Assembly (NCBI GenBank): GCA_951406725.2
Contig: OX597843.1
Location: 17,236,001 to 17,300,000, forward strand
Origin: Octopus vulgaris
Lineage: Eukaryota
Direction: 5' to 3'
Length of the DNA stretch: 64,000 bases
Shown: piece by piece, positions 3,301-58,596 of the stretch
Layout of the letters: each line of letters opens with the position of its first letter
How positions within the stretch are numbered: position 1 is the stretch's first letter
Notes under the pieces: model-generated
What the model saw: the letters and a program-made list of their open reading frames with translations, nothing else
What the model was told of the DNA's origin: nothing
The model's database searches: none
Program-made: the position numbers and the translations under genes

Positions 3301-6300
3301 TTAGCTAACTTATACATCAGCCCTGATCCAGCAGACCTATGATCAAAGGCGTTCCAGCTATGACCATCCTGTCTTTTATTCGCCATCATCAGCCTTTTCC
3401 AGGCTGGCATGGGTTGGATGGTTTGACAGGAACTGGCAACGTCAGAGACCACACCCGGTGCCATAGTCTGTTTTGGTTTGGTTTCTACAGCTGGATCCTA
3501 CTTCCACACGCCAAACACTTTACAGGGTGGGCTGAGTGTTTTTTATGTGGCACCAGCACCAATGCTTTTTACGTGGCACCAGCACCAATGCTTTTTACGT
3601 GGCACCAGCATGAGTGCTTTTTATGTGGCACCAGCACCAATGCTTTTTATGTAGCACTGGCACCAGTGCTTTTTATATGGCACCAGCACCAATGCTTTTT
3701 ATGTGGCACCAGCGATCTTTATGCGGGACTGGCACGAGTGCTTTTTACATGGCACCAGCATCAGTGCTTTTTATGTGGTACCAGCACCAGTGCTTTTTAT
3801 GTTTCAAAGAAAGGTGATATTTTTTCTATAGTTACACAGGTTTCTCACGAGGACTGGAGGCAAACGACCTTGCTCCATATGCCAATGATGCACATTTATA
3901 ACCATCGTGTAATGTCTATACAAGGTATCATCATCATCATCATTTAATGTCCGTTTTCCATGCTGGCATGGGTTGGAGGGTTTGACTGAGGGCTGGGGGG
4001 CCAGCAGCAGCACCAGGCCCAGTCTGATCTGGCAATGTTTCTACAGCTGGATGCCCTTCATAACGCCAACCACTCCAAGAGTGTAGTCAGTGCTTTTCAC
4101 ATGCCACCAGCACAGGAGCCAGTCAGGCGAGCCTGGCATCGATCATGTTCAGATGGTGCTTTTCATGTGCCACTGGCATAAAAGCCAGTCAGGGGCTACT
4201 GGCATCAGCCACAACTTGGTGCTTTTTACATGCCACTGGCACGGGAGCCAGTCAGGCAGTATAAAAACACAATGGGATTCTTTCGATTTCCATTCACCAA
4301 TCCCTTCACAAACCTGTGGTCAACCCAGAGCTATAACAAAAAACATTTGCCCAAGATTCCATGCAGTAGGCATAGGTGTGGCTGTGTGGTAAGTAGCTTG
4401 TTTACCAACCACATGGTTCCATGTTCAGTCCCACTGCGTGGCACCTTGGGCAAGTGTCTTCTACTATAGCCTTGGGCCGACCAAAGCCTTGTGAGTGGAT
4501 TTGGTAGACGGAAACTGAATGAAGCCCATCATATATATGTATATATATATATGTATGCGTGTGTATATGTTTGTGTGTCTGTGTTTGTCCCCCTAGCATC
4601 GCTTGACAACTGATGCTGGTGTGTTTATGTCCCCGTCACTTAGCGGTTCGGCAAAAGAGACCGATAGAATAAGTACTGGGCTTACAAAAAAATAAGTCCC
4701 GGGGTCGATTTGCTCGACTAAAGGTGGTGCTCCAGCATGGCCGCAGTCAAATGACTGAAACAAGTAAAAGAGTAAAAGAGTAGGACTAAACCATGAACAT
4801 GGTTTCAGTTTGGAAAATCAAACCAAGAGAATAAGCCCAACTTAAAAAAGTTAGAACTGGGGTTGATCTGTTGATCCCTCGCAGGGTGGCTGAACAAGTG
4901 CTATGCCTTGCCAAGGGGCAACCCATAAGAGCAGAAAACAAGAGACAAAAGAGAAAAGAAAGAAAACTAAATGAAGGCCCAATAATAGCTCACCTTTATC
5001 GTAGAATGTGTATTTCAAATACGTGAAGCTCTCTCTGTTGATGGTCGTTTGTCCAGGGAAGAGACAGTTGGGAACAGCCAGCCTCATGTCATCAGCATTG
5101 ATGGTCACCTGGAGATCTCTGCCATTTGTAAGGTCTGTTAGAGAAGAGATGGAGAGGAAACAACCAGAGGTGGTAGTGATGGTGGTGATGGTTTTGTTCG
5201 TTCTATTGTCACTACTTAGAATTTCAATGAAGTGGGGGAATGGAATTGAAAATACAAGTGCTCTAGACACTCCAAAAGAGACGCTCAAGATGAATATATA
5301 TATAAATGCTACCTTTTTAGCACAAGGTTGTACCAACGCACATCTATGCCGTTCTATATTTAAGAGATGAGGAATTTATATACATTATTTACATTCGACG
5401 GATATTTGTCCTCATCTTGTTTGTTGTTAACACAACATTTCATCTGATATACCCTCCAGCCTTCATCAGGTGTCTTGGGGAAATTTCATACCTGGGTTCT
5501 CATTCCTAAGGTATTTTTCGATGTTATTATTATTATAGGCGCAGGAGTGGCTGTGTGGTAAGTAGCTTGCTTACCAACCACATGGTTCTGGGTTCAGTCC
5601 CACTGCGTGGCATCTTGGGCAAGTGTCTTCTGCTATAGCCTCGGGCCGACCAATGCCTTCCTTGTGAGTGGATTTGGTAGACGGAAACTGAAAGAAGCCT
5701 GTCGTATATATGTATATATATATCTATGTGTGTGTATATGTTTGTGTGTCTGTGTTTGTCGCCCCACCATCGCTTGACAACCGATGCTGGTGTGTTTACG
5801 TCCCCGTCACTTAGCGGTTCGGCAAAAGAGACCGATAGATTAAGTACTGGGCTTACAAAGAATAAGTTCCGGGGTCGATTTGCTCGACTAAAGGTGGTGC
5901 TCCAGCATGGCCGCAGTCAAATGACTGAAACAAGTAAAAGAGTAATTATTATTATTATTCAGGTCTCTGCCTGGAATCGAACTCGGAATCTTGGGGTTAA
6001 TAGATCTTAACCCCAAGATTCCGAGGTCAATTCCAGGCAGTGACCTGAATAATAACATCGAAAAATACCTTAGGAATGAGAACCCAGGTACGAAATTTCC
6101 CCAAGACACCTGAAGAAGGCTGGAGGGTATATCAGCCGAAACGTGTTAACAACAAACAAGATGAGGACAAATATCCGTCAAATGTAAATAATGTAAATAA
6201 TGAACGTACATCTATGCCAGAAACTTTCTTAAACAACATCTTTACCATATATTTTTAAATAGCATTCGATTGACTACACAGAAATTCACCTTTTTTCTCT

Positions 6301-15800: not shown

Positions 15801-18800
15801 ACCAGGACACAAACACACACACACCAGGACACAAACACACACACACACACACCAGGACACAAACACACACATGCCAGGACACAAACACACACACACCAGG
15901 ACACAAACACACACACACACCAGGACACAAACACACACACACAGGACACACACACACACACACACACCAGGACACAAACACACACACACCAGGACACAAA
16001 CACACACACACCAGGACACAAACACACACACACCAGGACACAAACACACACACACCAGGAACAAACACACACACACCAGGACACAAACACACACACACAC
16101 CAGGACACAAACACACACATGCCAGGACACAAACACACACACACCAGGACACAAACACACACACACCAGGACACAAACACACACACACCAGGACACAAAC
16201 ACACACACACACCAGGACACAAACACACACACACCAGGACACAAACACACACACACGCAGGACACAAACACACACACACCAGGACACAAACACACACACA
16301 CGCAGGACACAAACACACACACACGCAGGACACAAACACACACACGCCAGGACACAAACACACACACACCAGGACACAAACACACACACACCAGGACACA
16401 AACACACACACACACCAGGACACAAACACACACACACGCATGACACAAACACACACACACCAGGACACAAACACACACACACACCAGGACACAAACACAC
16501 ACACACCAGGACACAAACACACACACACCAGGACACAAACACACACACGCAGGACACAAACACACACACACCAGGACACAAACACACACACACCAGGACA
16601 CAAACACACACACAAACCAGGACACAAACACACACACACCAGGACACAAACACACACAAACCAGGAACAAACACACACACACCAGGACACAAACACACAC
16701 AAACCAGGAACAAACACACACACACCAGGACACAAACACACACACAAACCAGGACACAAACACACACACACCAGGACACAAACACACACACACCAGGACA
16801 CAAACACACACAAACCAGGACACAAACACACACAAACCAGGACACAAACACACACACACACCAGGACACAAACACACACACACCAGGAACAAACACACAC
16901 ACACCAGGACACAAACACACACACACCAGGACACAAACACACACACACGCAGGACACAAACACACACAAACCAGGACACAAACACACACACACCAGGACA
17001 CAAACACACACACACGCAGGACACAAACACACACAAACCAGGACACAAACACACACACACCAGGACACAAACACACACACACCAGGACACAAACACACAC
17101 AAACCAGGACACAAACACACACACACACCAAGACACAAACACACACACACCAGGAACAAACACACACACACCACACAAACACACACACACCAGGACACAA
17201 ACACACACACACGCAGGACACAAACACACACAAACCAGGACACAAACACACACACACCAGGACACAAACACACACACACCAGGAACAAACACACACACAC
17301 CAGGACACAAACACACACACACCAGGACACAAACACACACACACGCAGGACACAAACACACACAAACCAGGAACAAACACACACACACCAGGACACAAAC
17401 ACACACAAACCAGGAACAAACACACACACACCAGGACACAAACACACACACACACCAGGACACAAACACACACACACGCAGGACACAAACACACACACAC
17501 CAGGACACAAACACACACAAACCAGGACACAAACACACACACACACCAGGACACAAACACACACACACACCAGGACACAAACACACACACACGCAGGACA
17601 CAAACACACACACACCAGGACACAAACACACACAAACCAGGAACAAACACACACACACACCGGGACACAAACACACACACACCAGGACACAAACACACAC
17701 ACCAGGACACAAACACACACAAACCAGGAACAAACACACACACCAGGACACAAACACACACACACACCAGGACACAAACACACACACACGCAGGACACAA
17801 ACACACACACACCAGGACACAAACACACACACACCAGGACACAAACACACACACACACCAGGACACAAACACACACAAACCAGGAACAAACACACACACA
17901 CCAGGACACAAACACACACAAACCAGGAACAAACACACACACACACCAGGACACAAACACACACACACCAGGACACAAACACACACACACACCAGGACAC
18001 AAACACACACACACCAGGACACAAACACACACACACCAGGACACAAACACACACAAACCAGGAACAAACACACACACACCAGGACACAAACACACACACA
18101 CACCAGGACACAAACACACACACACGCAGGACACAAACACACACAAACCAGGAACAAACACACACACACCAGGACACAAACACACACACACACCAGGACA
18201 CAAACACACACACACGCAGGACACAAACACACACACACCAGGACACAAACACACACAAACCAGGACACAAACACACACACACACCAGGACACAAACACAC
18301 ACAAACCAGGAACAAACACACACACACCAGGACACAAACACACACACACCAGGACACAAACACACACACACGCAGGACACAAACACACACACACGCAGGA
18401 CACAAACACACACAAACCAGGAACAAACACACACACACCAGGACACAAACACACACACACACCAGGAACAAACACACACACACGCAGGACACAAACACAC
18501 ACACACACACCAGGACACAAACACACACACACCAGGACACAAACACACACACACCAGGACACAAACACACACACACACCAGGAACAAACACACACACACC
18601 AGGACACAAACACACACACACCAGGAACAAACACACACACACCAGGACACAAACACACACACACCAGGAACAAACACACACACACCAGGACACAAACACA
18701 CACACACCAGGACACAAACACACACACACCAGGAACAAACACACACACACCAGGACACAAACACACACACACCAGGACACAAACACACACACACGCAGGA

Positions 18801-21800
18801 CACAAACACACACAAACCAGGAACAAACACACACACACCAGGACACAAACACACACACACCAGGAACAAACACACACACACCAGGAACAAACACACACAC
18901 ACCAGGACACAAACACACACACACCAGGACACAAACACACACAAACCAGGAACAAACACACACACACCAGGACACAAACACACACACACCAGGACACAAA
19001 CACACACAAACCAGGAACAAACACACACACACCAGGAACAAACACACACACACCAGGACACAAACACACACACACCAGGACACAAACACACACAAACCAG
19101 GAACAAACACACACACACCAGGACACAAACACACACACACCAGGACACAAACACACACAAACCAGGAACAAACACACACACACCAGGAACAAACACACAC
19201 ACACCAGGACACAAACACACACACACCAGGACACAAACACACACACACCAGGACACAAACACACACACACGCAGGACACAAACACACACACACGCAGGAC
19301 ACAAACACACACACACGCAGGACACAAACACACACACACGCAGGACACAAACACACACACACCAGGACACAAACACACACACACCAGGACACAAACACAC
19401 ACACACACACGCAGGACACAAACACACACACACGCAGGACACAAACACACACACACGCAGGACACAAACACACACACACCAGGACACAAACACACACACA
19501 CCAGGACACAAACACACACACACACCAGGACACAAACACACGCAGGACACAAACACACACACACACCAGGACACAAACACACACACACACCAGGACACAA
19601 ACACACACACACCAGGAACAAACACACACACACCGGGACACAAACACACACACACCAGGACACAAACACACACACACCAGGACACAAACACACACACACG
19701 CAGGACACAAACACACACACACCAGGACACAAACACACACACACCAGGACACAAACACACACACACACACGCAGGACACAAACACACACACACGCAGGAC
19801 ACAAACACACACACACGCAGGACACAAACACACACACACCAGGACACAAACACACACACACCAGGACACAAACACACACACACACACGCAGGACACAAAC
19901 ACACACATGCCAGGACACAAACACACACACACCAGGACACAAACACACACACACACACGCAGGACACAAACACACACACACGCAGGACACAAACACACAC
20001 ACACGCAGGACACAAACACACACACACCAGGACACAAACACACACACACCAGGACACAAACACACACACACGCAGGACACAAACACACACATGCCAGGAC
20101 ACAAACACACACAAACCAGGAACAAACACACACACACACCAGGACACAAACACACACACACACACCAGGACACAAACACACACACACGCAGGACACAAAC
20201 ACACACACACACACCAGGACACAAACACACACACACCAGGACACAAACACACACACACCAGGACACAAACACACACACACCAGGACACAAACACACACAT
20301 GCCAGGACACAAACACACACACACACCAGGACACAAACACACACACACACCAGGACACAAACACACACACACACACCAGGACACAAACACACACACACGC
20401 AGGACACAAACACACACACACACACCAGGACACAAACACACACACACCAGGACACAAACACACACACACCAGGACACAAACACACACACACCAGGACACA
20501 AACACACACACACGCAGGACACAAACACACACATGCCAGGACACAAACACACACACACACCAGGACACAAACACACACACACACCAGGACACAAACACAC
20601 ACACACACACCAGGACACAAACACACACACACGCAGGACACAAACACACACACACACACCAGGACACAAACACACACACACGCAGGACACAAACACACAC
20701 ACACACACCAGGACACAAACACACACACACACCAGGACACAAACACACACACACACACCAGGACACAAACACACACACACGCAGGACACAAACACACACA
20801 TGCCAGGACACAAACACACACACACAGGACACAAACACACACACACCAGGACACAAACACACACACACCAGGACACAAACACACACACACCAGGACACAA
20901 ACACACACATGCCAGGACACAAACACACACACACACACCAGGACACAAACACACACACACCAGGACACAAACACACACACACCAGGACACAAACACACAC
21001 ACATGCCAGGACACAAACACACACACCAGGACACAAACACACACACACCAGGACACAAACACACACACACACCAGGACACAAACACACACACACCAGGAC
21101 ACAAACACACACATGCCAGGACACAAACACACACACACACACCAGGACACAAACACACACACACGCAGGACACAAACACACACACACACCAGGACACAAA
21201 CACACACACACACCAGGACACAAACACACACACATGCCAGGACACAAACACACACACAGAAGGACACAAACACACACACACACACCAGGACACAAACACA
21301 CACACACCAGGACACAAACACACACACACCAGGACACAAACACACACACACACCAGGACACAAACACACACACACACCAGGACACAAACACACACACACA
21401 CCTGGACACAAACACACACACACCAGGACACAAACACACACACACCAGGACACAAACACAAACACACGCAGGACACAAACACACACACATGCCAGGACAC
21501 ACACACACACACCAGGACACAAACACACACACACCAGGACACAAACACACACACACACACCAGGACACAAACACACACACACGCAGGACACAAACACACA
21601 CACACACCAGGACACAAACACACACACACGCAGGACACAAACACACATACACACACCAGGACACAAACACACACACACGCAGGACACAAACACACACACA
21701 CCAGGAACAAACACACACACACGCAGGACACAAACACACACACACGCAGGACACAAACACACACCAGGACACAAACACACACACACCAGGAACAAACACA

Positions 21801-24800
21801 CACACACCAGGACACAAACACACACACACCAGGACACACACACACACACCAGGACACAAACACACACACACACAGGACAGGACACAAACACACACACACC
21901 AGGACACAAACACACACACACCAGGACACAAACATACAACCACATACCAGAATATAACCACACACACATGCACACAAACGCACACACACAGCCACAAACC
22001 TACACACCCATACAGACTCACACAACCACATGGAGACAGATACACAAATACGCAACCACACCCAATCACAGCCACACCTAAACAGTCACGCGCACACACA
22101 TGCAACCCTACATAAACACATAACCACACATAAACACAGTCACATACACAACGACACAGCCGCAAACACACAACCCTACATAAACACATACAAACACATA
22201 ACCACATGTAAACGCAGTCACACACATACACAAACACACCTGTACACACACACACACATACACACACATACAGCCACAAACAGACAGACAGTCACAAACC
22301 AACACACAAACACACCTGTACACACACACACACATACACACACATACAGCCACAAACAGACAGGCAGTCACAAACCAACACACAAACACACCTGTACACA
22401 CACACACATACACACACATACAGCCACAAACAGACAGGCAGTCACAAACCAACACAGAAACACACCTGTACACACACACACATACACACACATACAGCCA
22501 CAAACAGACAGACAGTCACAAACCAACACACAAACACACCTGTACACACACACACATACACACACATACAGCCACAAACAGACAGGCAGTCACAAACCAA
22601 CACACAAACACACCTGTACACACACACACATACACACACATACAGCCACAAACAGACAGGCAGTCACAAACCAACACACAAACACACCTGTACACACACA
22701 CACATACACACACATACAGCCACAAACAGACAGGCAGTCACAAACCAACACACAAACACACCTGTACACACACACACATACACACACATACAGCCACAAA
22801 CAGACAGGCAGTCACAAACCAACACACAAACACACCTGTACACACACACACATACACACACATACAGCCACAAACAGACAGGCAGTCACAAACCAACACA
22901 CAAACACACCTGTACACACACACACATACACACACATACAGCCACAAACAGACAGGCAGTCACAAACCAACACACAAACACACCTGTACACACACACACA
23001 TACACACACATACAGCCACAAACAGACAGGCAGTCACAAACCAACACACAAACACACCTGTACACACACATACATATACACACATACAGCCACAAACAGA
23101 CAGACAGTCACAAACCAACACACAAACACACCTGTACACACACATACAGCCACAAACAGACAGACAGTCACAAACCAACACACAAACACACCTGTACACA
23201 CACATACATATACACACATACAGCCACAAACAGACAGACAGTCACAAACCAACACACAAACACACCTGTACACACACACACACATACACACACATACAGC
23301 CACAAACAGACAGACAGTCACAAACCAACACACAAACACACCTGTACACACACACACACATACACACACATACAGCCACAAACAGACAGGCAGTCACAAA
23401 CCAACACACAAACACACCTGTACACACACATACATATACACACATACAGCCACAAACAGACAGACAGTCACAAACCAACACACAAACACACCTGTACACA
23501 CACACACACATACACACACATACAGCCACAAACAGACAGACAGTCACAAACCAACACACAAACACACCTGTACACACACACACATACACACACATACAGC
23601 CACAAACAGACAGACAGTCACAAACCAACACACAAACACACCTGTACACACACACACATACACACACATACAGCCACAAACAGACAGACAGTCACAAACC
23701 AACACACAAACACACCTGTACACACACACACACATACACACACATACAGCCACAAACAGACAGACAGTCACAAACCAACACACAAACACACCTGTACACA
23801 CACATACATATACACACATACAGCCACAAACAGACAGACAGTCACAAACCAACACACAAACACACCTGTACACACACATACATATACACACATACAGCCA
23901 CAAACAGACAGACAGTCACAAACCAACACACAAACACACCTGTACACACACACACATACACACACACATACAGCCACAAACAGACAGGCAGTCACAAACC
24001 AACACACAAACACACCTGTACACACACATACATATACACACATACAGCCACAAACAAACAGACAGTCACAAACCAACACACAAACACACCTGTACACACA
24101 CATACATATACACACACACACAGCCACAAACAAACAGACAGTCACAAACCAACACACAAACACACCTGTACACACACACACACATACACACACATACAGC
24201 CACAAACAGACAGACAGTCACAAACCAACACAAACACACCTGTACACACACATACATATACACACATACAGCCACAAACAGACAGACAGTCACAAACCAA
24301 CACACAAACACACCTGTACACACACATACATATACACACATACAGCCACAAACAGACAGACAGTCACAAACCAACACACAAACACACCTGTACACACACA
24401 CACACATACACACACATACAGCCACAAACAGACAGACAGTCACAAACCAACACACAAACACACCTGTACACACACATACATATACACACACACACAGCCA
24501 CAAACAAACAGACAGACCAACACACACAGAAGCAAACACAGAATTAAAAATGGAGAAAGCATTCGAAGAAGTTGATGGAGATGTCTACTCACCTGGTCGA
24601 TAAAAGAGAATCTAGCCTTTAGGTAGAGGTTGACCCCTACCTTGGCAGGGTACAGCATATCGGGGTTCTGCAGGGCACACATCTCTGCAGCAGACTGTAA
24701 TGAACAAAAGAGAAGCGGGCAAGGTCACGAAAAATATATTAATGGCTATGTGAAAGGTTGGAAGCTGGCAGAATCATTAGCTTGCTGGACAAAATGCCTA

Positions 24801-27754
24801 GCAGTATTTTGTCCGTCCTGGCACTCACCACCATCATCATCATCATCATCATCATCATCGTCATCATCATCTAACGTCCGTTGTCCATGCTGGCATGGAA
24901 TGGATGGTTTGACCAGGGCTGGTAAGCTGTAAGGCTGCACCAGATTCCAGTCTGATTTGGCATGGTTTCTAAAGCTGGATGCCCTTCCTAATGCCAACCC
25001 CTCTGAGTGGGTGCTTTTACATGCCACTGGCACATGAGCCAGTTGTGTGACACCGGTATCTGCCACAACAAAGACGGCGAGCTGGCAGAAATGTTAGCAC
25101 GCCGGGCGAAATGCGTAGCCATATTTCGTCTGCCGTTACGTTCTGAGTTCAAATTCCGCCGAGGTCGACTTTGCCTTTCATCCTTTCGGGGTCGATTAAA
25201 TAAGTACCAGTTTCGCACTGGGGTCGATGTAATCGACTTAATACCTATGTCTGTCCTTGTTTGTACCCTCTATGTTTAGCCCCTAGTGGGCAATAAAGAA
25301 ATAGGTATCTGCCACAACTACGATTTCACTTGACTTGATGGGTCTTCTTCTCAAGCACAGCATACAGCCAAAGGTTTCGGTCACTTGTCATTGCCTCCAT
25401 GAGACCTAACGCTCAAAAGGTGCTTTTTCCAGGACACTGGCATCGGCCACAAGGTCGACGTTGCTTTTTGTCCTTTCAGGATCAATAAAATAAGTATCAG
25501 TCAAAAACTGGGGTCAATGTAATCAGGCCATGTCGAGGCAGTGTAGCAGAGTAGGCTCATCAAAACAGTATGATCTTGAGCTCAAAATGATCTCAAGCTC
25601 CCAGCTTCCACATCAGACTGTGGTTGGATGGAGAGAACATGCTGAGGGCCTCATCCTCTGATGGACTCAACATGGGCAATCCAATCCAATCCAATCCAAT
25701 ATGAAAGGGAAATAGGGAAAAACAGGGAAACAAAAACAAGGATGTAGATGTGACACAAGGGGTGATATGCTGATATCATACTCTTTGTTTCAGTCACTGG
25801 ACTGTGGCCATGCTGGTGCACCACCTTGAAAGGTTTAGTCGAAGAAACTGACTTTTAGTACCTATTTTTTTAAAGTCTGGTACTTATTCTAATTTCTTTA
25901 TTGCCCACAAAGGGCTAAACACAGAGGGGACAAACAAGGACAGACAAAGGGATTAAGTCGATTTCATCGGCCCCCAGTGCATAACTGGTACTTAATTTAT
26001 CGCCCCCGAAAGGATGAAAGGCAAAGTTGACCTCGGCAGAATTTGAACTCAGAACATAATGGCAGACGAAATACCGCTAAGCACTTCGCCCAGCATGCTA
26101 ACACCTCTGCCAGCTTGCCGCCTTATTCTATCACTCACTTTTACAGAACTGCTAGATTATGGGGATGTAAACAAACCAACAGCAGTTGTTGAGGTGGGAG
26201 AGGAGACAGATACAAACAGAAAGTCAGACACACATACATACATATGTGAAGGGCATTATGAATGTGAGTATATGTATATATCATCATCATCATCATCAAC
26301 ATCATTTAGCGTCTGCTTTCCATGCTAGCATAGGTTGGACGGTTCAACTGGGGTCTGGGAAGCCAGAAGGCTGCACCAGTCCCAGTCTGATCTGGCAGTG
26401 TTTCTACGGCTGGATGCCCTTCCTAACGCCAACCACTCCGTGAGTGTAGTGGGTGCTTTTTACGTGCCACCCGCACAGGTGCCAGACGGGGCTGGCAAAC
26501 GGCCACGGACGGATGGTGCTTTTTACGTGCCACCAGCACGGGGGCCAGGCGAGGCTGGCAAACGGCCACGGACGGATGGTGCTTTTTACGTGCCACCAGC
26601 ACGGGGGCCAGGTGAGGCTGGCAATGGCCACGAATGGATGGTGCTTTTTATGAGCCACCGGCACGGAGGCCAGTCAGGGCGGCACTGGCAATGGCCACGA
26701 TCAGAAGGTTCTCTTATGTGCCACCGGCACTGGTATCACAGCTGCAATTTCCATTGATGTTGATCGACTTCGATTTTGGTTCTGCTTTCTGATATATATA
26801 TATATATATATATATTCCGGCCTTTAGGCTTTTCCTTCATACACATCAGCTCAATTTGATTTGTTCTCAGTACAGATACCTCTTGTTTGTATTCCTAATT
26901 GTGTATTCTCTGTTTCTTTTGTTTCTTTGTTTTTTTGTCTTTGTTGCCATACACATTTGCTAGCTTTCTTACAAAGGGGTCTAATGCTCTTAGCTTAAAT
27001 TTTTGCGGGGGCAACCAGATCAAACCATGTTAAATGCAACTGCCCGAAATGGTCATGACTTCTGGTACTTGGCTGATGAAAAAAAAAGCCAAGAATGTCC
27101 CATCACTTTTTGCCTGTCCTTCTAATTGTTGTATCTCTTGTCTGCCTTTGTATCGTCTATCTGTCTGAAAACTTTAATCCCCTGTATTGTAGTTTTGTTC
27201 CATTTTTATATTTACACACACACACACATATATCTGTAAAATAATATGTGACAATTATTCGGTAGCCAAGATAAAACTCTGAGTTTTGGATGCCGAGGTG
27301 GAAATCCACAACACTATCTCTTCGGTTATCTGGCCGTCTGAAAAACTCAGAGTTTATCTTGGCTACCGAATAATTGTCACATATTATTTTACAGATAAAT
27401 TTCCTCTATTTACATAACATTGAGGTCTCTTTCTTTCTTTTGTTATCTTACCGTTTTTACCTATATATCTATATATATATATATCACCCTAGGATTTTTA
27501 GAAAACTCATATGTGTTTTGGCTGATGAATACGAGACACTTGTATTTGCTGCAATATTTGCAGCTTTTAATAAAGCTGTTCTTCGTATGAAACAATTGTA
27601 CTGAACAACTAATCCATTCTTGTTGCTTTTTTCTTCTTTATAATCACCCCACATTATTTTATCGCTAATACCATAAAGAATTCTGGTGCATCTAAGTTAA
27701 GTACCACATTGATGTGAATTCATTGGAACACACTTGAATCTTCATTGTTTTTAC

Positions 27755-43700: not shown

Positions 43701-46700
43701 TTCCTATGGATAACATCGGTGACATGGACAGGGGAAGCTGGTATGCATGGGAGACAGCTGGTCTTCCATGAACTACCCTGCCCAGACTTGTGCCTTGAAC
43801 GGGTTGCCCATCATTGCAATATATGTCTTCATTACTGTGTTGGAGTCTGTGATTTTGACCTTACATACAAGACCTTACATATCAGACAGCTATTATTTAG
43901 AGGACACCAGTTCAGAGATCTACAATTACAATGTCTTTCTGGAGTATTCTTGGAGTTATTTTTATTGTGATTGAACATTATCAATTTCATATTGAGGAGG
44001 CAACTATAGCTAACTTTAACAGTGTTGCTATTGAAGATATTGTAGTATTTGTGTGAGTGTGGGAATATCCCAAACCACTAAACCACATGCTTTCACACAG
44101 ATGGCTATTTAACAGAAAATAAACATTACTTACCTCCAGTTTCCAGTGGTGCTTGAGTGCTTGACTGAGTTGGGAAACTGTACTGCACAAAGCAATCTGC
44201 TTCTCCATAGACCATTTCTTCTAAATGTTGAAGGTTATTTATGTCTTCCACAACCACTTCAAATACATGTTCTAAAAAACCGAATAAATGTGTTTTTAAA
44301 AAATGTCTGGTTTCTTTTTGGACAGACTTTGTACAATGTTGTATGAGATAACAGGGAGTAAAAATAAGCAATCTAGAAAACAAACTGGAGTAAGAGAGGC
44401 TGAGTAAGGGAGAAAACAAATTGAAGAGAGGCTGGGTAAGGGAGAAAACAAATTGGAGTAAGAGAGGCTGAGTAAGGGAGAAAACAAATTGGAGTAAGAG
44501 AGGCTGAGTAAGGGAGAAAACAAACTGGAGTAAGAGAGGCTGAGTAAGGGAGAAAACAAATTGGAGTAAGAGAGGCTGAGTAAGGGAGAAAACAAATTGG
44601 AGTAAGAGAGGCTGAGTAAGGTAGAAAACAAACTGGAGTAAGAGAGGCTGAGTAAGGGAGAAAATAAAATGGAGTAAGAGAGGCTGAGTAAGGGAGAAAA
44701 TAAATTGAAGAGAGACTGAGTAAGGGATAAAATAAATTGGAGTAAGAGAGGCTGAGTAAGGGAGAAAACAAATTGGAGTAAGAGAGGCTGAGTAAGGGAG
44801 AAAACAAATTGGAGTAAGAGAGGCTGAGTAAGGGAGAAAACAAACTGGAGTAAGAGAGGCTGAGTAAGGGAGAAAACAAATTGGAGTAAGAGAGGCTGAG
44901 TAAGGGAGAAAATAAATTGGAGTAAGAGAGGCTGAGTAAGGGAGAAAATAAATTGAAGAGAGGCTGAGTAAGGGAGAAAACAAATTGGAGTAAGAGAGGC
45001 TGAGTAAGGGAGAAAACAAATTGGAGTAAGAGAGGCTGAGTAAGGGAGAAAACAAATTGGAGTAAGAGAGGCTGAGTAAGGGAGAAAACAAACTGGAGTA
45101 AGAGTAAGGAGAAAACAAATTGGAGTAAGAGAGGCTGAGTAAGGGAGAAAACAAATTGAAGAGAGGCTGGGTAAGGTAGAAAACAAATTGGAGTAAGAAA
45201 GGCTGAGTAAGGGAGAAAACAAATAGGGGTAAGAGAGGCTGAGTAAGGGAGAAAACAAATTGGAGTAAGAGAGGCTGAGTAAGGGAGAAAACAAACTGGA
45301 GTAAGAGAGGCTGAGTAAGGGAGAAAACAAATTGGAGTAAGAGAGGCTGAGTAAGGGAGAAAATAAATTGGAGTAAGAGAGGCTGAGTAAGGGAGAAAAC
45401 AAATTGGAGTAAGAGAGGCTGAGTAAGGGAGAAAACAAATTGGAGTAAGAGAGGCTGAGTAAGGGAGAAAACAAATTGGAGTAAGAGAGGCTGAGTAAGG
45501 GAGAAAACAAACTGGAGTAAGAGAGGCTGAGTAAGGGAGAAAACAAATTGGAGTAAGAGAGGCTGAGTAAGGGAGAAAACAAATTGAAGAGAGGCTGGGT
45601 AAGGGAGAAAACAAATTGGAGTAAGAGAGGCTGAGTAAGGGAGAAAACAAATTGGAGTAAGAGAGGCTGAGCAAGGGAGAAAACAAATTGGAGTAAGAGA
45701 GGCTGAGTAAGGGAGAAAACAAATTGGAGTAAGAGAGGCTGAGTAAGGTAGAAAACAAACTGGAGTAAGAGAGGCTGAGTAAGGGAGAAAATAAAATGGA
45801 GTAAGAGAGGCTGAGTAAGGGATAAAATAAATTGAAGAGAGGCTGAGTAAGGGAGAAAACAAATTGGAGTAAGAGAGGCTGAGTAAGGGAGAAAACAAAT
45901 TGGAGTAAGAGAGGCTGAGTAAGGGAGAAAACAAATTGGAGTAAGAGAGGCTGAGTAAGGGAGAAAACAAATTGGAGTAAGAGAGGCTGAGTAAGGGAGA
46001 AAACAAACTGGAGTAAGAGAGGCTGAGTAAGGGAGAAAACAAATTGGAGTAAGTGAGGCTGAGTAAGGGAGAAAACAAATTGGAGTAAGAGAGGCTGAGT
46101 AAGGGAGAAAACAAATTGAAGAGAGGCTGAGTAAGGGAGAAAACAAATTGGAGTAAGAGAGGCTGAGTAAGGGAGAAAACAAACTGGAGTAAGAGAAGCT
46201 GAGTAAGGGAGAAAACAAATTGGAGTAAGAGAGGCTGAGTAAGGGAGAAAACAAATTGGAGTAAGAGAGGCTGAGTAAGGGAGAAAACAAATTGGAGTAA
46301 GAGAGGCTGAGTAAAGGAGAAAACAAATTGGAGTAAGAGAGGCTGAGTAAGGGAGAAAACAAATTGGAGTAAGAGAGAAAACAAATTGGAGTAAGAGAGG
46401 CTGAGTAAGGGAGAAAACAAATTGGAGTAAGAGAGGCTGAGTAAGGGAGAAAATAAATTGGAGTAAGAGAGGCTGAGTAAGGGAGAAAACAAATTGGAGT
46501 AAGAGAGGCTGAGTAAGGGAGAAAACAAATTGGAGTAAGAGGGGCTGAGTAAGGGAGTAAACAAATTGGAGTAAGAGAGGCTGAGTAAGGGAGAAAACAA
46601 ATTGGAGTAAGAGAGGCTGAGTAAGGGAGAAAACAAATTGGAGTAAGAGAGGCTGAGTAAGGGAGTAAACAAATTGGAGTAAGAGAGGCTGAGTAAGGGA

Positions 46701-48532
46701 GAAAAGTAGTCGTAGGATATGCTGTATATAACCGGCACTCTGTCATTTATGATGATGAGGGTTCCAGTTGATCCGATCAATGGAATGGCCAGCTTGTGAA
46801 ATTAACGTGCATGTGACCGGGCACTCCACAAACACACGTACCCTCAACGTAGTTCTCAGGGAGATTCAGCATGACACAAGTGTGACGAGACTGGCCCTTT
46901 GAAATACAGGTTCTATTCGTTTTTGCCAGTCGAGTGGAGTGGAGCAACTTGAAATAAAGTGTCTTGCTCAAGAACACAACACCTCGCCAGGAACTGAACT
47001 CACGACTTAGCGATTGTGAGTTGAATGCCCCTAACCACTAAGCCACACACATTCACCATGTTGTGTATATGGAATATAAAATTATAGTATTAACATCCTA
47101 ATATAGAAGATGTCAAAGGTAACATGATTTAAGTATTTCGTCTGCCGTTACGTTCTGAGTTCAAATTCTGCCGAGGTCGACTTTGCCTTTCGGGGTCGAT
47201 AAATTATGTACCAGTTACGCACTGGGGTCGATATAATCGACTTAATCCGTTTGTCTGTCCTTGTTAGTCCCCTCTGTGTGTAGCCCCTTGTGGGTAGTAA
47301 AGAAATAGGTAACATGATTTAAGTAGCTACTATAATTAGTTGCTATAGCTACTATAATTATAGCTACTATAATTAGCTACTATAATTAGCTACTATAGCT
47401 ACTATAATTAGCTACTATAATTGCAGCTACTATAATTAGGTACTATAGCTACTATAATTAGCTACTATATCTACTATAATAATAGATTACTATAATAGCT
47501 ACTATAATTATAGATTTTATAGGTGAAGATATAGCGGTGTGGTTAAGAAACTCACTTTGCAAACATGTGGTTTCTGGTTCGGTCCTACTACATGGTACTT
47601 TAGGAAAATAACTTCTCCTATAAGACCAAAGATTTGTGAGTGAATTTAGTAGGTGGAAATTGTGTGGAAGCCTGTCTTATGTGGTTATATCTATACATGT
47701 GTGTTCGTGTTTATGTTTGTTCCAACCACCACAGCTTGACAACCGGTGTCGATTTGTTTACATCCCCATGACTTAGTGGTTCAGCAAAAGAGACCAACGG
47801 AACAAGTACCAGATTAAAAGTAAGTACTGGGGCAAATTTGTTTAACTAGAAATTCAAGGGGGTGCTCCAGCATGGCCACAGTCCAATGACTGAAACAAGT
47901 GAAAGATAAAAGAAGATAACTATAGAGTAAAAAAATCACCAAAACTTACCAATATAGTCTTTACAAATACCTTCATCGGTGGTTGTTGAGGAGCTGGTGT
48001 TTCTAGCAAAGAAGATAATAGTCAAAGTGATTTGTCATTCTGATATGTTATAATCATCAACATCATAGCAACCAGAGTATTAACTACACACACACACAAA
48101 CATATATATATACACACACACACATCACAGAATTGTGCAGGCCATTGCACACCACTGGGCACAATGCACTTTCAAATTTGTGTTGACTGCACCATTCTTT
48201 TCCCCATCTTGGCCCAAACTGCTCGACCAATTCGTCTTCCCGTCATTGTGCAGGCCTCTCAAGAGGCCTTTTCTGATCTTTTGGACACCACTTGGTAACT
48301 GCACAGGTCCACCTGGTTGTCTATGAAACTTGTGACATAATTGGCCCAGCAGAGCTTGTGTTTTCAGAACTCTTTGCGATCACATCATTCATTCTGCTCC
48401 ATTCTTGAATTATCTCATTTCGAATTCCAGGTTCAGTCCCACTGTGTGGCAGATGGGGCAAGTGTCTTCTACTAAAGATTTGGGCTGCTCAAAGCCTTGT
48501 GAGTGGAATTGGTAATGAAAAGTGAAAGAAGC

Positions 48533-53264: not shown

Positions 53265-53846
53265 GTAATAATAATAACAATAATAATAATAATAGTCCTG
53301 ATGCAGTACCAGGCAGTGGCTCTCATGGTTTCTGATCTTAACTGACTGGAAGTGTTATCATGTACATTGTTTTGTCTTGGTATAAAAGATGGGCTACAGC
53401 AAATATTCTGCTCAATACCAGAGATTTGCTTGTCAGTTGTTTGACCGTAACCAGTTGAGCATGTCCCTCAGTGGCTGATGATATGTGCATCTCTGATCAC
53501 GAGCAGAAGTAGTGGGGGAGCATCATAGCCATGTGTTAAGAGGGATTCTTTGGGGTTTGAATAATTCACCTTTCGAAACATGGGTGTTTCATTCATCATC
53601 CTAAAGCAACCCTTATTCAGGGACCTTTTGAGCAGGATGGGCTACTCGACCTGAAGAAAATTCTAACTGGGCCCCACCTGCAAGGTCATGTGCTGTTTAT
53701 CATATGAGATCACCATGTCGCGCACATATGGTTGTGATGCATGTGCCTGGTGTACCCTTATCAGACAGGTAGTCACGATGGGTATACTGGGCTTTGTAAA
53801 TTTGTACCCCAGTGTCACTTTGATGGCATGCACTGCTCTCTCACTC

Positions 53847-53884
<38 letters not shown>

Positions 53885-56800
53885 GATGGGCTACAGCAAA
53901 TATTCTGCTCAATACCAGAGATTTGCTTGTCAGTTGTTTGACCTTAACCAGTTGAGCATGTCCCTTAGTGGCTGACGATATGTGCATCTCTGATCACGAG
54001 CAGAAGTAGTGGGGGAGCATCATAGCCATGTGTTGAGAGGGATTCTTTGGGGTTTGAATAATTCACCTTTCGAAACATGGGTGTTTCATTCATCATCCTA
54101 AAGCAACCCTTATTCAGGGACCTTTTGAGCAGGATGGGCTACTCGACCTGAAGAAAATTCTAACTGGGCCCCACCCGTAAGGTCATGTGCTGTTTATCTT
54201 GATATGAGATCACCATGTCGCGCACATATGGTTGTGATGCATGTGCCTGGTGTACCTTTATCAGACGGGTAGTCATGATGGGTATATTGGGCTTCGTATA
54301 TTTTACCCGTGTCACTTTGATGGCATGCACTGCTCTCTCACTCAATAATAATAATATCATCATCATCATAATTTTAACATGCCCTTTTCCATACCTATCT
54401 AAGTGGATGGTGTTTATTGAGGCAGATTTTCCATGGTCGGATGCCCTTCCTGTCACCAACTCTCACCTCTTTCCAAGCAAAATAATATTTATCCTGGAGG
54501 AGGAGGAGAATCCCTTCTATTAAAGGCACATTGCCTGAAATTTTGTGGTAAGGGTCTAGTTTAATAGTTTCCAACCTTTTCACAGTGGGTTCCCAACCCT
54601 TTTATTTAAATGAGCTTTCCCATGGATTCCTTTTGATATGCTTAGCCCTATATATATCTCTTTTACTTGTTTCAGTCATTTGACTGTGGCCATTCTGGAG
54701 CACTGCCTTTAGTTGAGCAAATCAACTATTGCCTCCATAAAATATTTATGAAGAGGAGGCGTAGTGGTTGCAAAACAAGCTTCTTAACTATATAGCCATG
54801 TCTGCACAAGAACAAAACACAACAAGCCTCTAAAAACTCACCTTGTCATCAGACACTTCCAATGATGTTGTTGTTTTATCCCAGACCTCTATAATTAGGT
54901 AATTGTTGCGAATTCTCTCCAAAAAGTTGGCTGTGACAAAAACTGGTGAAACCTGTTAGGATGAGTAAAAAAATACTTGATATATCATCATTTTCATCAT
55001 CATTTTAACATTCCCTCTTCCCTTTTGGCAGGGTCAGATGGAATTTGTTGAAGCAGATTTTCTACTGCTGGGTGCCCTTCCTGTCACCAATCCTTAGCTG
55101 TTTCTAAGCAAGGTATTATTTCCCAATGGCCAGACATGCTTTAGCTGAAGACTATAAACCCCAAAGGGCCACTTGCAAAAGCAACGAAAAAGCTTTTTGG
55201 AACAAACAAAAATAAAAGAAAATTTTAAATGAATGGAAACTGAATCAGAGCGTGTGTTAAATATATATAGGCAATATCACTCTTTACATTATTTACATTT
55301 GACGGACATAAAAGTGCCCATGCAGTGTCAAGTAAAAGTGTTCGTGTAGTGCCACATAAGAGCACCCAGCACACTCTGACTCCATAAATGGTAAAAGTGA
55401 AAATTATAAATTATCAAGGTGGCTTCAGTTCTATATTTAAGAGATGAGGAATTATTTACATTATTCACATTATTTACATTATTTACATTTGACAGATATT
55501 TGTCCCCATCTTGTTTGTTGTTAACACAACATTTCATCTGATGTACCCTCCAGCCTTCTTCAGGTGTCTTGGGGAAATTTCGAACCTGGGTTCTCATTCC
55601 TATGGTATTTTTTGATGGTATTATTATTATGCAGTTCTATATTTAAGAGATGAAGAATTAGGTACATTATTTACATTATTTACATTCGATGGATATTTGT
55701 CCTCATCTTGTTTGTTGTTAACACAACGTTTCGGCTGATATACCCTCCAGCCTTCTTCAGGTGTCTTGGGGAAATTTCGAACCTGGGTTCTCATTCCTAT
55801 GGTATTTTTTGATGGTATTATTATTATGCAGTTCTATATTTAAGAGATGAAGAATTAGGTACATTATTTACATTATTTACATTCGATGGATATTTGTCCT
55901 CATCTGGTTTGTTGTTAACACAATGTCTCGGCTGATATACCCTCCAGCCTTCTTCAGGTGTCTTGGGGAAATTTCAAACCTGGGTTCTCATTCCTAAGGT
56001 ATTTTTTGACATTATTATTATTATACAGTTCTATATTTAAGAGATGAGGAATTATGTACATTATTTACATTCGATGGATATTTGTCCTCATCTTGTTTGT
56101 TGTTAACACAACGTTTCGGCTGATATACCCTCCAGACTTCATCAGGTGTCTTGGGGAAATTTCAAACCTGGGTTCTCATTCCTAAGGTATTTTTTGACAT
56201 TATTATTATTATACAGTTCTATATTTAAGAGATGAGGAATTATATACATTATTTACATTCGATGGATATTTGTCCTCATCTTGTTTGTTGTTAACACAAC
56301 GTTTCGGCTGATATACCCTCCAGCCTTCTTCAGGTGTCTTGGGGAAATTTCAAACCTGGGTTCTCATTCCTAAGGTATTTTTTGACATTATTATTATTAT
56401 ACAGTTCTATATTTAAGAGATGAGGAATTATGTACATTATTTACATTCGATGGATATTTGTCCTCATCTTGTTTGTTGTTAACACAACATTTCATCTGAT
56501 ATACCCTCCAGCCTTCATCAGGTGTCTTGCGGAAATTTTGAACCTGGGTTCTCATTCCTAAGGTATTCTTCGATGTTATTATGATTATTATGATTATTAT
56601 TATTATTATTGTTGTTCAGGTCACTGCTTGGAATCAAACTCGGAATCTTGGGGTTAGTAGCCCGCACTCTTAACCACTACGCCATATGCCCGTGGGTATA
56701 TCAGCCAAAACGTTGTGCTAACAACAAACAAGATGAGCACAAATATCCGTCAAATGTAAATAATGTAAATAATGTATTAAGGTGGCTTGTTCTGACTGTC

Positions 56801-58596
56801 ATTTCTAGCAATGCTGGTGCTAACTAGCACCCTTAGTCCTCTTAGTGATGCCTATACTTGTGCTGTTTGGTTGTGAATTGCAAATAAGACACCTTAATAA
56901 TTTATAAACATATATTAGGTTGTCCGGAAAGTTCATGCCGATTTATAGTAGCTTACCTTTTGACTTATTTTAGAACATGGTTGAGTCCATAAAATAGGAT
57001 TTGACTACACCTCCATTTAGTACTTACTTACTTGAACTTGTGGAGACATTCACCCTGGGTGGGTTGCGTTGGCTTCTTCCACCACCCTCGAGGTATCTCG
57101 AACCATGGCAGCCCACGAACGACGGTCCTGCGCCAGTTCACTGGAGATAGCGAGCCAGCCACGGTTCCACCGGCGCAGGCCGACCACCTGCGGACCCGTG
57201 AGCACAGAGAGGTCCTCCTTGATCGTTGTAGCCCAGGTCTTCAGCTGCCCGCCCGCGCATTTCCGCCAGTTGGGAAGTGGAGTTTGGAGAAGGACATCAC
57301 GGCTCAGTTTAGGTTATCTTTTCGTGGAAGAAGGTTTATGTTCCTATAACCTGTGTTAATTCTGCAACCCTTTAAAATGGAAGATAAGAAAGTTCATTTT
57401 CGGTACCTGTTGCTTTGGGAACCAGACAAAAATTGCTGCAGCTTGGCTGGGATGTGTTACCCCACCCTCCATATTCACCAGATATTGCTCCTTCGGATTT
57501 CCACTTATTCAGGTCTCTGCAGAATAGTCTTAATGGTAAAATTTTCAATACCTTGGATGACGTAAAAAGATACCTTGATGAATTCTTTGCCATGAAACCA
57601 CCTCAATTCTGGGAAGAGGGTATTTTCAATTTAAAGGAAAGATGGAGACGCATTGTGCAAGAAAATGGTTCATATTTGGTTGATTAAAAATGTAATGGCA
57701 AGTATTTATTGATCTTTTTGTTTCCTTTAAAAATCGGCACGAACTTTCCGGACACCCCAATATTTTACTTGTTTCAGTTATTAAACGATGGCCATGCTGG
57801 AGTGTTCTTTTAATTGAACAAATCATCACCAGTACTTTACTCTTTTTCTCAAATCTGGCACTTATTCTATTCATCTGTTTATTGCCAAACTGCTCAGTTA
57901 TGGTGACATAAACAAACCAACACTGGTTTTTGAGCAATAGTGGAGAAGAGGGTATTTTCAAGTTAAAGGAAAGATGGAGACACATTGTGCAACAAAATGG
58001 TTCATATTTGGTTGATTAAAAATGTAATGGCAAGTATTTATTGACCTTTTTTCTTTCCTTTAAAAATCGGCATGAACTTTCCGGACAACCCAATACATTA
58101 TGTATGGTACACAGATGACTATTTTAATCCAATGTATTGGAATGTTGTGCGTACCTGAATGAAATCATATTGAGGATTGTTTGTGCGCCAGCATATACTG
58201 GATCTGACCTGCTGCTCACACCAAAACATGCGGCAGACCAAGTAGCTGTTTCTAGTGGCACGAGGAAGATTTGAACCTGCAAGAGGAAAAAAAAAAAACC
58301 CAACAGGGTGAAGACATACATAAACAACAAACAATAATTGTAGAATGCACCCACCCACACACACACATGCACACACAAACACATGCACACACACACGCAC
58401 ACACACGCACACACACGCACACACACATGCAAACACACACAAACACACATGCATACAAACACACACATGCAAACACACACAAATACACACACACACATGC
58501 ACACACACAACCACACACACACGCAAGCGCACACAAACACACACACACACACGCACACAAACACACACACAAACACACACGCACATGCACACACAT

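What the first reader, a model, noticed from the sequence alone, without database searches (positions are those of the whole stretch)
55416..56788. tRNA-headed (SINE-like) retroposon carrying a hammerhead ribozyme, present as a TSD-flanked hexamer
Seen, on the minus strand: a tRNA-like Pol III head (GGGCATATGGCGTAGTGGTTAAG...CCGAGTTTGATTCC), an (AAT)n spacer, then six ~190-bp units. Each unit contains GACAC-CUGANGA-stem II(GGCUG/CAGCC)-GAAA-CG-UU-GUGUU. An inverted partial unit sits at the 5' end (56692-56776), and one 10-13 bp TSD surrounds everything. Units 2 and 5 are intact, unit 4 has one stem II mismatch, unit 3 has GAGA, and units 1 and 6 share a variant. Established: Penelope-like elements and non-LTR retrozymes carry minimal type I HHRs whose palindromic stem III (here ACGU) favours dimeric cleavage, and PLE insertions often show tandem plus inverted ends. 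Inference: a non-autonomous Pol III SINE/retrozyme hybrid that is mobilised by PLE RT and could release ~190-nt monomers or circles. It is sense to the C2CD3 pre-mRNA.
Basis: partly seen in the sequence, partly recalled or inferred. Interest (0 to 1): 0.9.

Follow-up and report, generated by a model that had tools for sequence, protein, structure and literature searches.

The report
Penelope retrotransposon end with tRNA-like promoter
This repeat is the end piece of an abundant, decayed Penelope-type retrotransposon that unusually carries a tRNA-like promoter sequence beside its predicted self-cutting ribozyme, which likely explains thousands of short SINE-like copies; the six-fold array here is a rare local expansion.

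Summary
The anatomy is real but it is not a stand-alone SINE/retrozyme. The tRNA-like head plus hammerhead unit is the pseudo-LTR (pLTR) of an autonomous Penelope/Poseidon-type element (PLE). The head follows the RT/GIY-YIG ORF in 28 of 29 visible ORF-end loci. The unit encodes the first ~50 residues of the PLE protein (50% identity over 44 aa to a full-length PLE). Copies show PLE hallmarks: two 3' ends (tail), head-to-head arms with the tail on one arm only (62/69), and mostly 8-15 bp TSDs (44/69 vs 2/69 control). The family is normally a monomer with thousands of copies. Head-to-tail junctions number 12 genome-wide, 5 of them here, and unit variants show the hexamer grew locally after insertion. 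Only 2 of 6 ribozymes are intact and this copy's B box is mutated. What is unusual is the tRNA-derived A/B-box promoter inside an autonomous PLE's pLTR. Copy number steps up about 3.4-fold at tRNA +1, and the ORF lacks shared TTTT terminators (p about 0.02), which suggests Pol III transcription (untested). A recurrent 3-nt deletion at the predicted cut site (31/245) may be a scar of self-cleavage.

The parts
55413..55425 (-). 3' copy of target-site duplication (13 bp, one mismatch; 10 bp exact)
   Evidence: paralogues of the target repeat hold the 13-mer once
55426..55631 (-). Unit 6 (3'-most pLTR unit); ends at the distal RT start (with tail); hammerhead broken
55632..55828 (-). Unit 5; intact minimal hammerhead 55720-55765, predicted cut between 55725 and 55724
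55829..56025 (-). Unit 4; hammerhead core GAGA (broken)
56026..56213 (-). Unit 3; one stem II mismatch
56214..56401 (-). Unit 2; intact minimal hammerhead 56293-56338, predicted cut between 56298 and 56297; 56367-56214 encodes the PLE protein N-terminus (one stop)
56402..56590 (-). Unit 1 (5'-most); hammerhead broken
56576..56612 (-). (AAT)n spacer between head and unit; each tandem junction falls in it
56620..56691 (-). tRNA-like head: A box 56684-56674, B box 56641-56630 (C>T mutated in this copy); in the autonomous PLE it follows the ORF's 3' UTR directly
56694..56775 (+). Inverted 5'-truncated pLTR arm ending at the proximal RT start (no tail), joined to the head at a GGG(C/T)ATAT microhomology
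56776..56788 (-). 5' copy of target-site duplication
5943..6203 (+). Second, monomeric copy of the same family in the window (inverted head, partial head, unit with the 3-nt deletion at the cut site)

Best explanation
The head plus hammerhead unit is the pseudo-LTR of a decayed autonomous Penelope/Poseidon-type retrotransposon, and its tRNA-derived A/B boxes likely served as an internal Pol III promoter. Shown: the element reads ORF (RT, GIY-YIG), short UTR, tRNA-like head, (AAT)n, then a unit holding the hammerhead and the first ~50 codons of the ORF. Inferred: RNA started at about tRNA +1 and read into the ORF. The PLE protein cut both target strands and primed reverse transcription at two internal sites 22-30 nt apart, one per strand. 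Copying back to the RNA 5' end gave ~290-bp SINE-like solo pLTRs, joined head to head by snap-back or microhomology and flanked by a TSD. At this locus a short head-to-tail tandem (template jump or re-insertion at the (AAT)n, inferred) was then extended by DNA-level duplications to six units. It is now most likely a passive intronic relic.
For: PLE linkage: ORF directly upstream of the head in L043/L044/L049; head follows the ORF in 28 of 29 visible ORF-end loci, one of them the query's own (one row cut from view). The unit runs into the ORF 5' part in L130/L134/L151 and in 36 exact junction matches. The unit peptide matches the N-terminus of an 847-aa PLE protein, P0003 (50% over 44 aa, E 4e-9). 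ORF homologues carry RT and GIY-YIG domains and run to 815-855 aa. Integration signature: 3' ends cluster at unit 157-167 and 186-188; 62 of 69 head-to-head pairs have the tail on exactly one arm (p 4e-12); TSD of 8 bp or more in 44/69 vs 2/69 control. Defined 5' end: exact 20-mer counts are 339 (-671), 848 (-185), 1078 (-38..-19), 3658 (+1..+20, three degenerate letters), 4372 (+30..+49) and 7482 (unit), with similar probe survival. 25 of 30 head copies start between -19 and +8. Three copies start at +1 and continue past the tail end, two of them well into the ORF. No TTTT run is shared among 91 ORF segments (0.38/kb; synonymous-shuffle P(0)=0.02) and none lies in the window element. Local growth: 5' halves cluster U2-4 and U5-6, 3' halves cluster U1-3 and U4-5; 12 junctions genome-wide.
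Against: Pol III use is not shown. A -13 kcal/mol hairpin spans +1 in the ORF-linked RNA and could alone pile 5' ends there. Copy number also rises 1.7-fold from head to unit. The TTTT test is one ancestral sequence with no matched control family, and the single copy L187 has 3 runs against 3.1 expected. An uncapped Pol III RNA would need a special route to translation. RNA reads from a related organism show both orientations equally, 76% running into unrelated flanks, and no start or end piles (strandedness unknown), which fits passive read-through. No intact ORF among 133 matches. Units 1 and 6 share a rare variant (2/180 in the family) that simple duplication does not explain.
Confidence: 0.7

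Rival explanations
1. Same PLE pLTR, but the tRNA-like head is a passenger (an old SINE or tRNA fragment captured in the 3' UTR). The short copies are ordinary 5'-truncated PLE copies that stop or snap back at the hairpin spanning +1, and transcription is by Pol II.
For: Hairpin at +1; many copies carry a perfect inverted copy of the head start; steep 3' bias is normal for PLEs; palindromes at inverted junctions are described for rotifer PLEs (PMC3846280); no discrete transcript.
Against: A and B boxes and their tRNA spacing are kept while the cloverleaf is lost; no shared TTTT along the ORF; copies starting at +1 and reading on past the tail.
Confidence: 0.25
2. The solo copies are an independent non-autonomous SINE lineage that arose from the pLTR and propagated from its own master copies.
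For: Solo copies outnumber ORF-linked ones about 4-fold and appear less diverged (3.6% vs 5.3%, p 0.001; confounded by how the loci were selected).
Against: Both subfamily types occur in ORF-linked and solo copies in similar proportions. A solo copy ending at the proximal site lacks the distal start, and in the anole PLE the protein needs the first 172 nt of the ORF (PMC11167929), more than a unit holds.
Confidence: 0.15
3. The hexamer is a retrozyme made by rolling-circle reverse transcription of a hammerhead-cut, ligated ~190-nt circle.
For: The duplicated blocks have a boundary between unit positions ~52 and ~139, an interval that includes the cut site; tandem pLTR-derived retrozymes exist (bioRxiv 10.64898/2026.07.22.740005).
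Against: One RT pass would give initially identical units, whereas these show nested blocks with shared CpG decay. The junction lies at the tail end and (AAT)n, not at the cut. This junction form is not amplified elsewhere. The array has a head and a linear 3' end.
Confidence: 0.05

Closest known systems
Penelope/Poseidon-clade PLEs, e.g. Anolis PAc (Frangieh 2024, PMC11167929) and Adineta Pen2 (Arkhipova 2013, PMC3846280)
   Same: Single RT + C-terminal GIY-YIG ORF; pLTR overlapping the ORF start; hammerhead in the pLTR; optional tail from two RT start sites; inverted 5' arm; TSD.
   Different: The pLTR here contains a tRNA-derived A/B-box segment. Described pLTR promoters are Pol II-like (putative TATA/Inr in Pen2a). 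Solo pLTRs starting at tRNA +1 dominate the family.
Schistosoma Sm-alpha / Sj-alpha SINE-like hammerhead elements (as reviewed in PMC6765202)
   Same: Pol III-type promoter followed by a hammerhead; SINE-like dispersed copies; tandem forms.
   Different: In the passages read, Sm-alpha is not described as the terminal repeat of an autonomous PLE. Here the promoter is not reiterated in the tandem and the hammerhead is the minimal PLE type.
Non-LTR retrozymes (Li, Clavereau, Pollet bioRxiv 10.64898/2026.07.22.740005)
   Same: Tandem type I hammerhead units related to pLTRs.
   Different: Tandems are rare exceptions here. The two intact hammerheads are not consecutive, so their 'active' criterion is not met.
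TRIMp3: Cassandra, Helenus, Ajax (Kojima 2024, PMC10886601)
   Same: Small-RNA-derived Pol III promoter embedded in a retrotransposon's terminal repeat.
   Different: Those are non-autonomous LTR elements; this is the terminal repeat of an ORF-bearing PLE.
Octopus tRNA SINEs OK/OR1/OR2 (Ohshima & Okada 1994; not held)
   Same: tRNA-like head, best match Arg among the sampled host tRNAs (that OR1/OR2 derive from tRNA-Arg is recalled).
   Different: OR2 is a CORE-SINE (PMC4758252), whereas the body here is PLE coding sequence; OK and OR1 could not be compared.

Membership tests
EN+ Penelope-like element (pLTR) | RT ORF with C-terminal GIY-YIG endonuclease linked to the repeat | tested here: met
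EN+ Penelope-like element (pLTR) | pLTR present at both ORF ends and overlapping the ORF start | tested here: met
EN+ Penelope-like element (pLTR) | Optional tail, inverted arm, TSD | tested here: met
   ends at 157-167 and 186-188; 62/69 pairs with one tail; TSD 44/69 vs 2/69
Penelope/Poseidon clade | RT phylogeny with named clade members | not tested
   No labelled references available. Domain order and a GIY-YIG without an upstream Zn-finger linker fit the clade by recalled criteria.
Minimal type I hammerhead (PLE type) | CUGANGA / extra nt / stem II / GAAA-NN-UH, stem I, palindromic stem III | tested here: met
   (2 of 6 units; strict motif intact in 10 of 93 family copies)
Minimal type I hammerhead (PLE type) | Self-cleavage | not testable with these tools
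   Indirect only: 3-nt deletion at the predicted site in 31/245 copies
tRNA SINE | tRNA-derived head with A and B boxes | tested here: met
   (ungapped, ~60% to a host tRNA-Arg; parent not fixed, sampled set lacked several isotypes); B box mutated in the window copy
tRNA SINE | Pol III transcription from the head | tested here: inconclusive
   Step at +1 and TTTT depletion; no start pile in RNA reads
tRNA SINE | Lineage separate from its autonomous partner, sharing only a 3' tail | tested here: not met
   The whole head+unit is part of the autonomous element and subfamily markers are shared
Non-LTR retrozyme | Family amplified as tandems with consecutive intact hammerheads | tested here: not met
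Non-LTR retrozyme | Circular monomer RNA | not testable with these tools
   Only a monomer locus was laid
Named Repbase/Dfam/SINEBase family | Sequence match | not testable with these tools
   Libraries not held; papers not held

The most novel reading that the evidence does not exclude
An autonomous, protein-coding retrotransposon transcribed by RNA polymerase III from a captured tRNA promoter in its pLTR, with a 2.7-kb terminator-free body, whose own terminal repeat floods the genome as a SINE with no LINE partner; and a genomic scar showing that a minimal PLE hammerhead cuts in vivo and is re-joined by the RT.
Probability: 0.3. Interest if true: 0.85.

Novelty: new variant of a known kind. 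Interest (0 to 1): 0.55.

Why it matters
If the promoter is real, it shows a route from a PLE to a SINE-like family in one step and suggests that some 'tRNA SINEs' and Sm-alpha-like hammerhead SINEs are solo pLTRs. It would also be a rare Pol III-driven coding retroelement. The thousands of copies give in vivo statistics on PLE integration (one RT start site per strand) that extend the in vitro PAc work, which saw no strand difference. The 3-nt deletion offers a testable handle on whether PLE hammerheads cut in vivo, which is still open. The hexamer itself is unimportant.

Tried and rejected
Rfam and ARAGORN find neither tRNA nor hammerhead: the motifs are too degenerate or minimal. A DNA search with the unit alone returned nothing because common words are skipped; patterns were used instead. 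No RNA holder was listed by the index, which is no evidence. An apparent second 5' head on the unit (L066, L069) is another repeat inserted in the (AAT)n. 5' truncations piling exactly at the cut site were not seen. A search for a TTTT control family failed: the second hammerhead family gave no ORF match within the fetched flanks, and a distant PLE query returned mostly or only this family (judged from shared coordinates). No PDB relative. Earlier scan findings: none. The solo-versus-ORF divergence difference was set aside as selection-biased. Literature searches listed no title or abstract describing a tRNA-derived promoter in a PLE pLTR; subscription papers, Repbase and supplements were not seen.

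Full report
Setting. The window lies in a 2.80-Gb animal genome, G000. The element is on the minus strand, sense to a host gene with an exon at 54842-54952. The name C2CD3 is recalled, not tested.

Observation. The head, (AAT)n, six units, inverted arm and flanking repeat are as described. The 13-bp duplication is supported by paralogues of the target repeat, which carry it once. Two units fold as a minimal type I hammerhead: stem I 5 bp, an extra A, stem II 6 bp, and ACGU as the palindromic stem III. This is the architecture that Cervera and de la Pena describe for PLE min-HHRs, which cleave weakly and only as multimers (PMC4209133; part 1 of 4 and passages). The head has a consensus A box and a B box at tRNA spacing and aligns ungapped to a host tRNA-Arg at about 60% (30 tRNA loci sampled, parent isotype not fixed). 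In this copy the B box has lost its invariant C.

What it belongs to. All 30 loci selected by the head alone have a same-strand unit (my 120-bp filter scored 24, and the other six are visible in the printout as overlapping or interrupted). Three of them have a Penelope-type RT and GIY-YIG coding region directly upstream. Selecting by the ORF 3' end, the head follows in 28 of 29 visible rows. At the other end, the unit runs into the ORF 5' region. Translated, each window unit matches the N-terminus of a full-length 847-aa PLE protein from another source (best 50% over 44 aa, E 4e-9). Head plus unit is therefore the pLTR, arranged as in the anole PAc element, where the hammerhead overlaps the ORF start and RT initiates at two internal sites that define the tail (PMC11167929; parts 1-2 of 4). 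The family is decayed: no intact ORF among 133 matches, and the longest frame without a stop is 569 aa. Related sequence occurs in runs from five organisms.

Integration signature. Among 118 loci, 3' ends cluster at unit positions 157-167 and 186-188. In 62 of 69 head-to-head pairs exactly one arm has the tail (some loci give more than one pair). TSDs of 8 bp or more, mostly 8-15 bp, flank 44 of 69 pairs against 2 of 69 controls. A tail at one end only is known qualitatively (PMC8557442 and PMC3846280, passages). The window fits: the direct array ends at 188 and the inverted arm near 166.

The promoter question. Exact 20-mer counts rise slowly along the ORF (339, 848, 1078), then 3.4-fold within about 40 nt at tRNA +1 (3658, with three degenerate letters), then to 4372 and 7482. 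Probe survival in ORF-linked copies is 0.33-0.38 for the three probes tested, implying roughly 10,000-20,000 copies. Of the first 30 head hits on one contig, 25 begin between -19 and +8 and one has a long ORF upstream. The sense strand has no TTTT shared among copies along about 2.7 kb (0.44/kb vs 1.26 Markov; synonymous-shuffle P(0)=0.02, although copy L187 itself has 3 private runs). Against this, a hairpin spans +1 and could stop or fold back the RT, and RNA reads show no discrete transcript (7178 and 5533 reads, both orientations, 76% running into flanks; related organism, monomer locus L086, strandedness unknown). I put Pol III use in the active ancestor at about 0.6. Precedents are partial: Sm-alpha (promoter plus hammerhead; review passages, PMC6765202) and TRIMp3 (part 1 of 6, PMC10886601).

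The hexamer. A junction pattern finds 12 head-to-tail joins genome-wide, 5 at this locus and 7 at five other loci (exact matches only, so a lower bound). Variants form nested blocks, three copies of one block and two of another, with about 1-2% private change against about 5% between blocks, which indicates duplication after insertion. The seed tandem may come from an RT jump, as partial tandems are common among copies that extend past the tail, or from re-insertion at the (AAT)n, since PAc prefers ATT targets. The variant shared by units 1 and 6 is unexplained; gene conversion is possible. By the criterion of Li et al. (bioRxiv 10.64898/2026.07.22.740005; parts 1-2 of 5) it is not an active retrozyme.

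A possible cleavage scar. A 3-nt deletion at the predicted cut site occurs in 31 of 245 copies, on both subfamily backgrounds, against 4-5 for the next commonest deletions in AAC repeats. It is discordant between the two arms in 17 of 19 pairs, whereas a subfamily marker is concordant in 49 of 57 (counted by eye). It is also the only indel listed in the RNA reads. RT jumping across a cut RNA by a GT microhomology would give exactly this product; slippage at the structured junction without cleavage is the rival.

Verdict. A new variant of a known kind: a PLE with a tRNA-like promoter segment in its pLTR. The PLE identity is close to certain, the Pol III mechanism is probable but unproven, and the hexamer is an incidental relic. 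Whether the family is already named in Repbase, Dfam or SINEBase could not be tested. The octopus repeat papers read (PMC13282606, part 1 of 3 and passages; PMC8967140, passages) give class-level counts only; their supplements were not opened.

Noticed in passing
window 27500-27660 (+); L256-L275: A different, younger hammerhead repeat family (long stem II, 98-99% identical copies, inverted arms, T-rich, no tRNA head seen), probably another PLE pLTR; no ORF match within 1.5 kb flanks.
   Followed up: partly
window 11743 (+) and 52712 (-): Two further hammerhead-like motifs with long stem II, likely other PLE pLTR families.
   Followed up: no
window 56787-56907 (+) and 55370-55425 (-): The insertion target is another dispersed repeat (about 600 candidates) arranged head to head and often ending at (TA)n; the TSD starts at its inversion junction.
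   Followed up: partly
window 55278-55309 (-): A 30-bp fragment of the same pLTR family ending at the proximal RT start, 120 bp from the array.
   Followed up: no
window 53382-54356; L066, L069, L120: A ~497-bp repeat (tandem dimer in the window) is found inserted in the (AAT)n spacer of this family at other loci, suggesting an (AAT)n-targeting retroelement.
   Followed up: no
window 56912-56947 and 57728-57763: 36-bp inverted repeats about 850 bp apart, likely a Tc1/mariner-type deletion derivative next to the element.
   Followed up: no
window 14595-22007 and 44375-46705: Long minisatellites (22-bp unit x about 330; 36-bp unit x about 65).
   Followed up: no
L231: Cluster of seven tRNA-Cys-like genes within 3 kb.
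   Followed up: no
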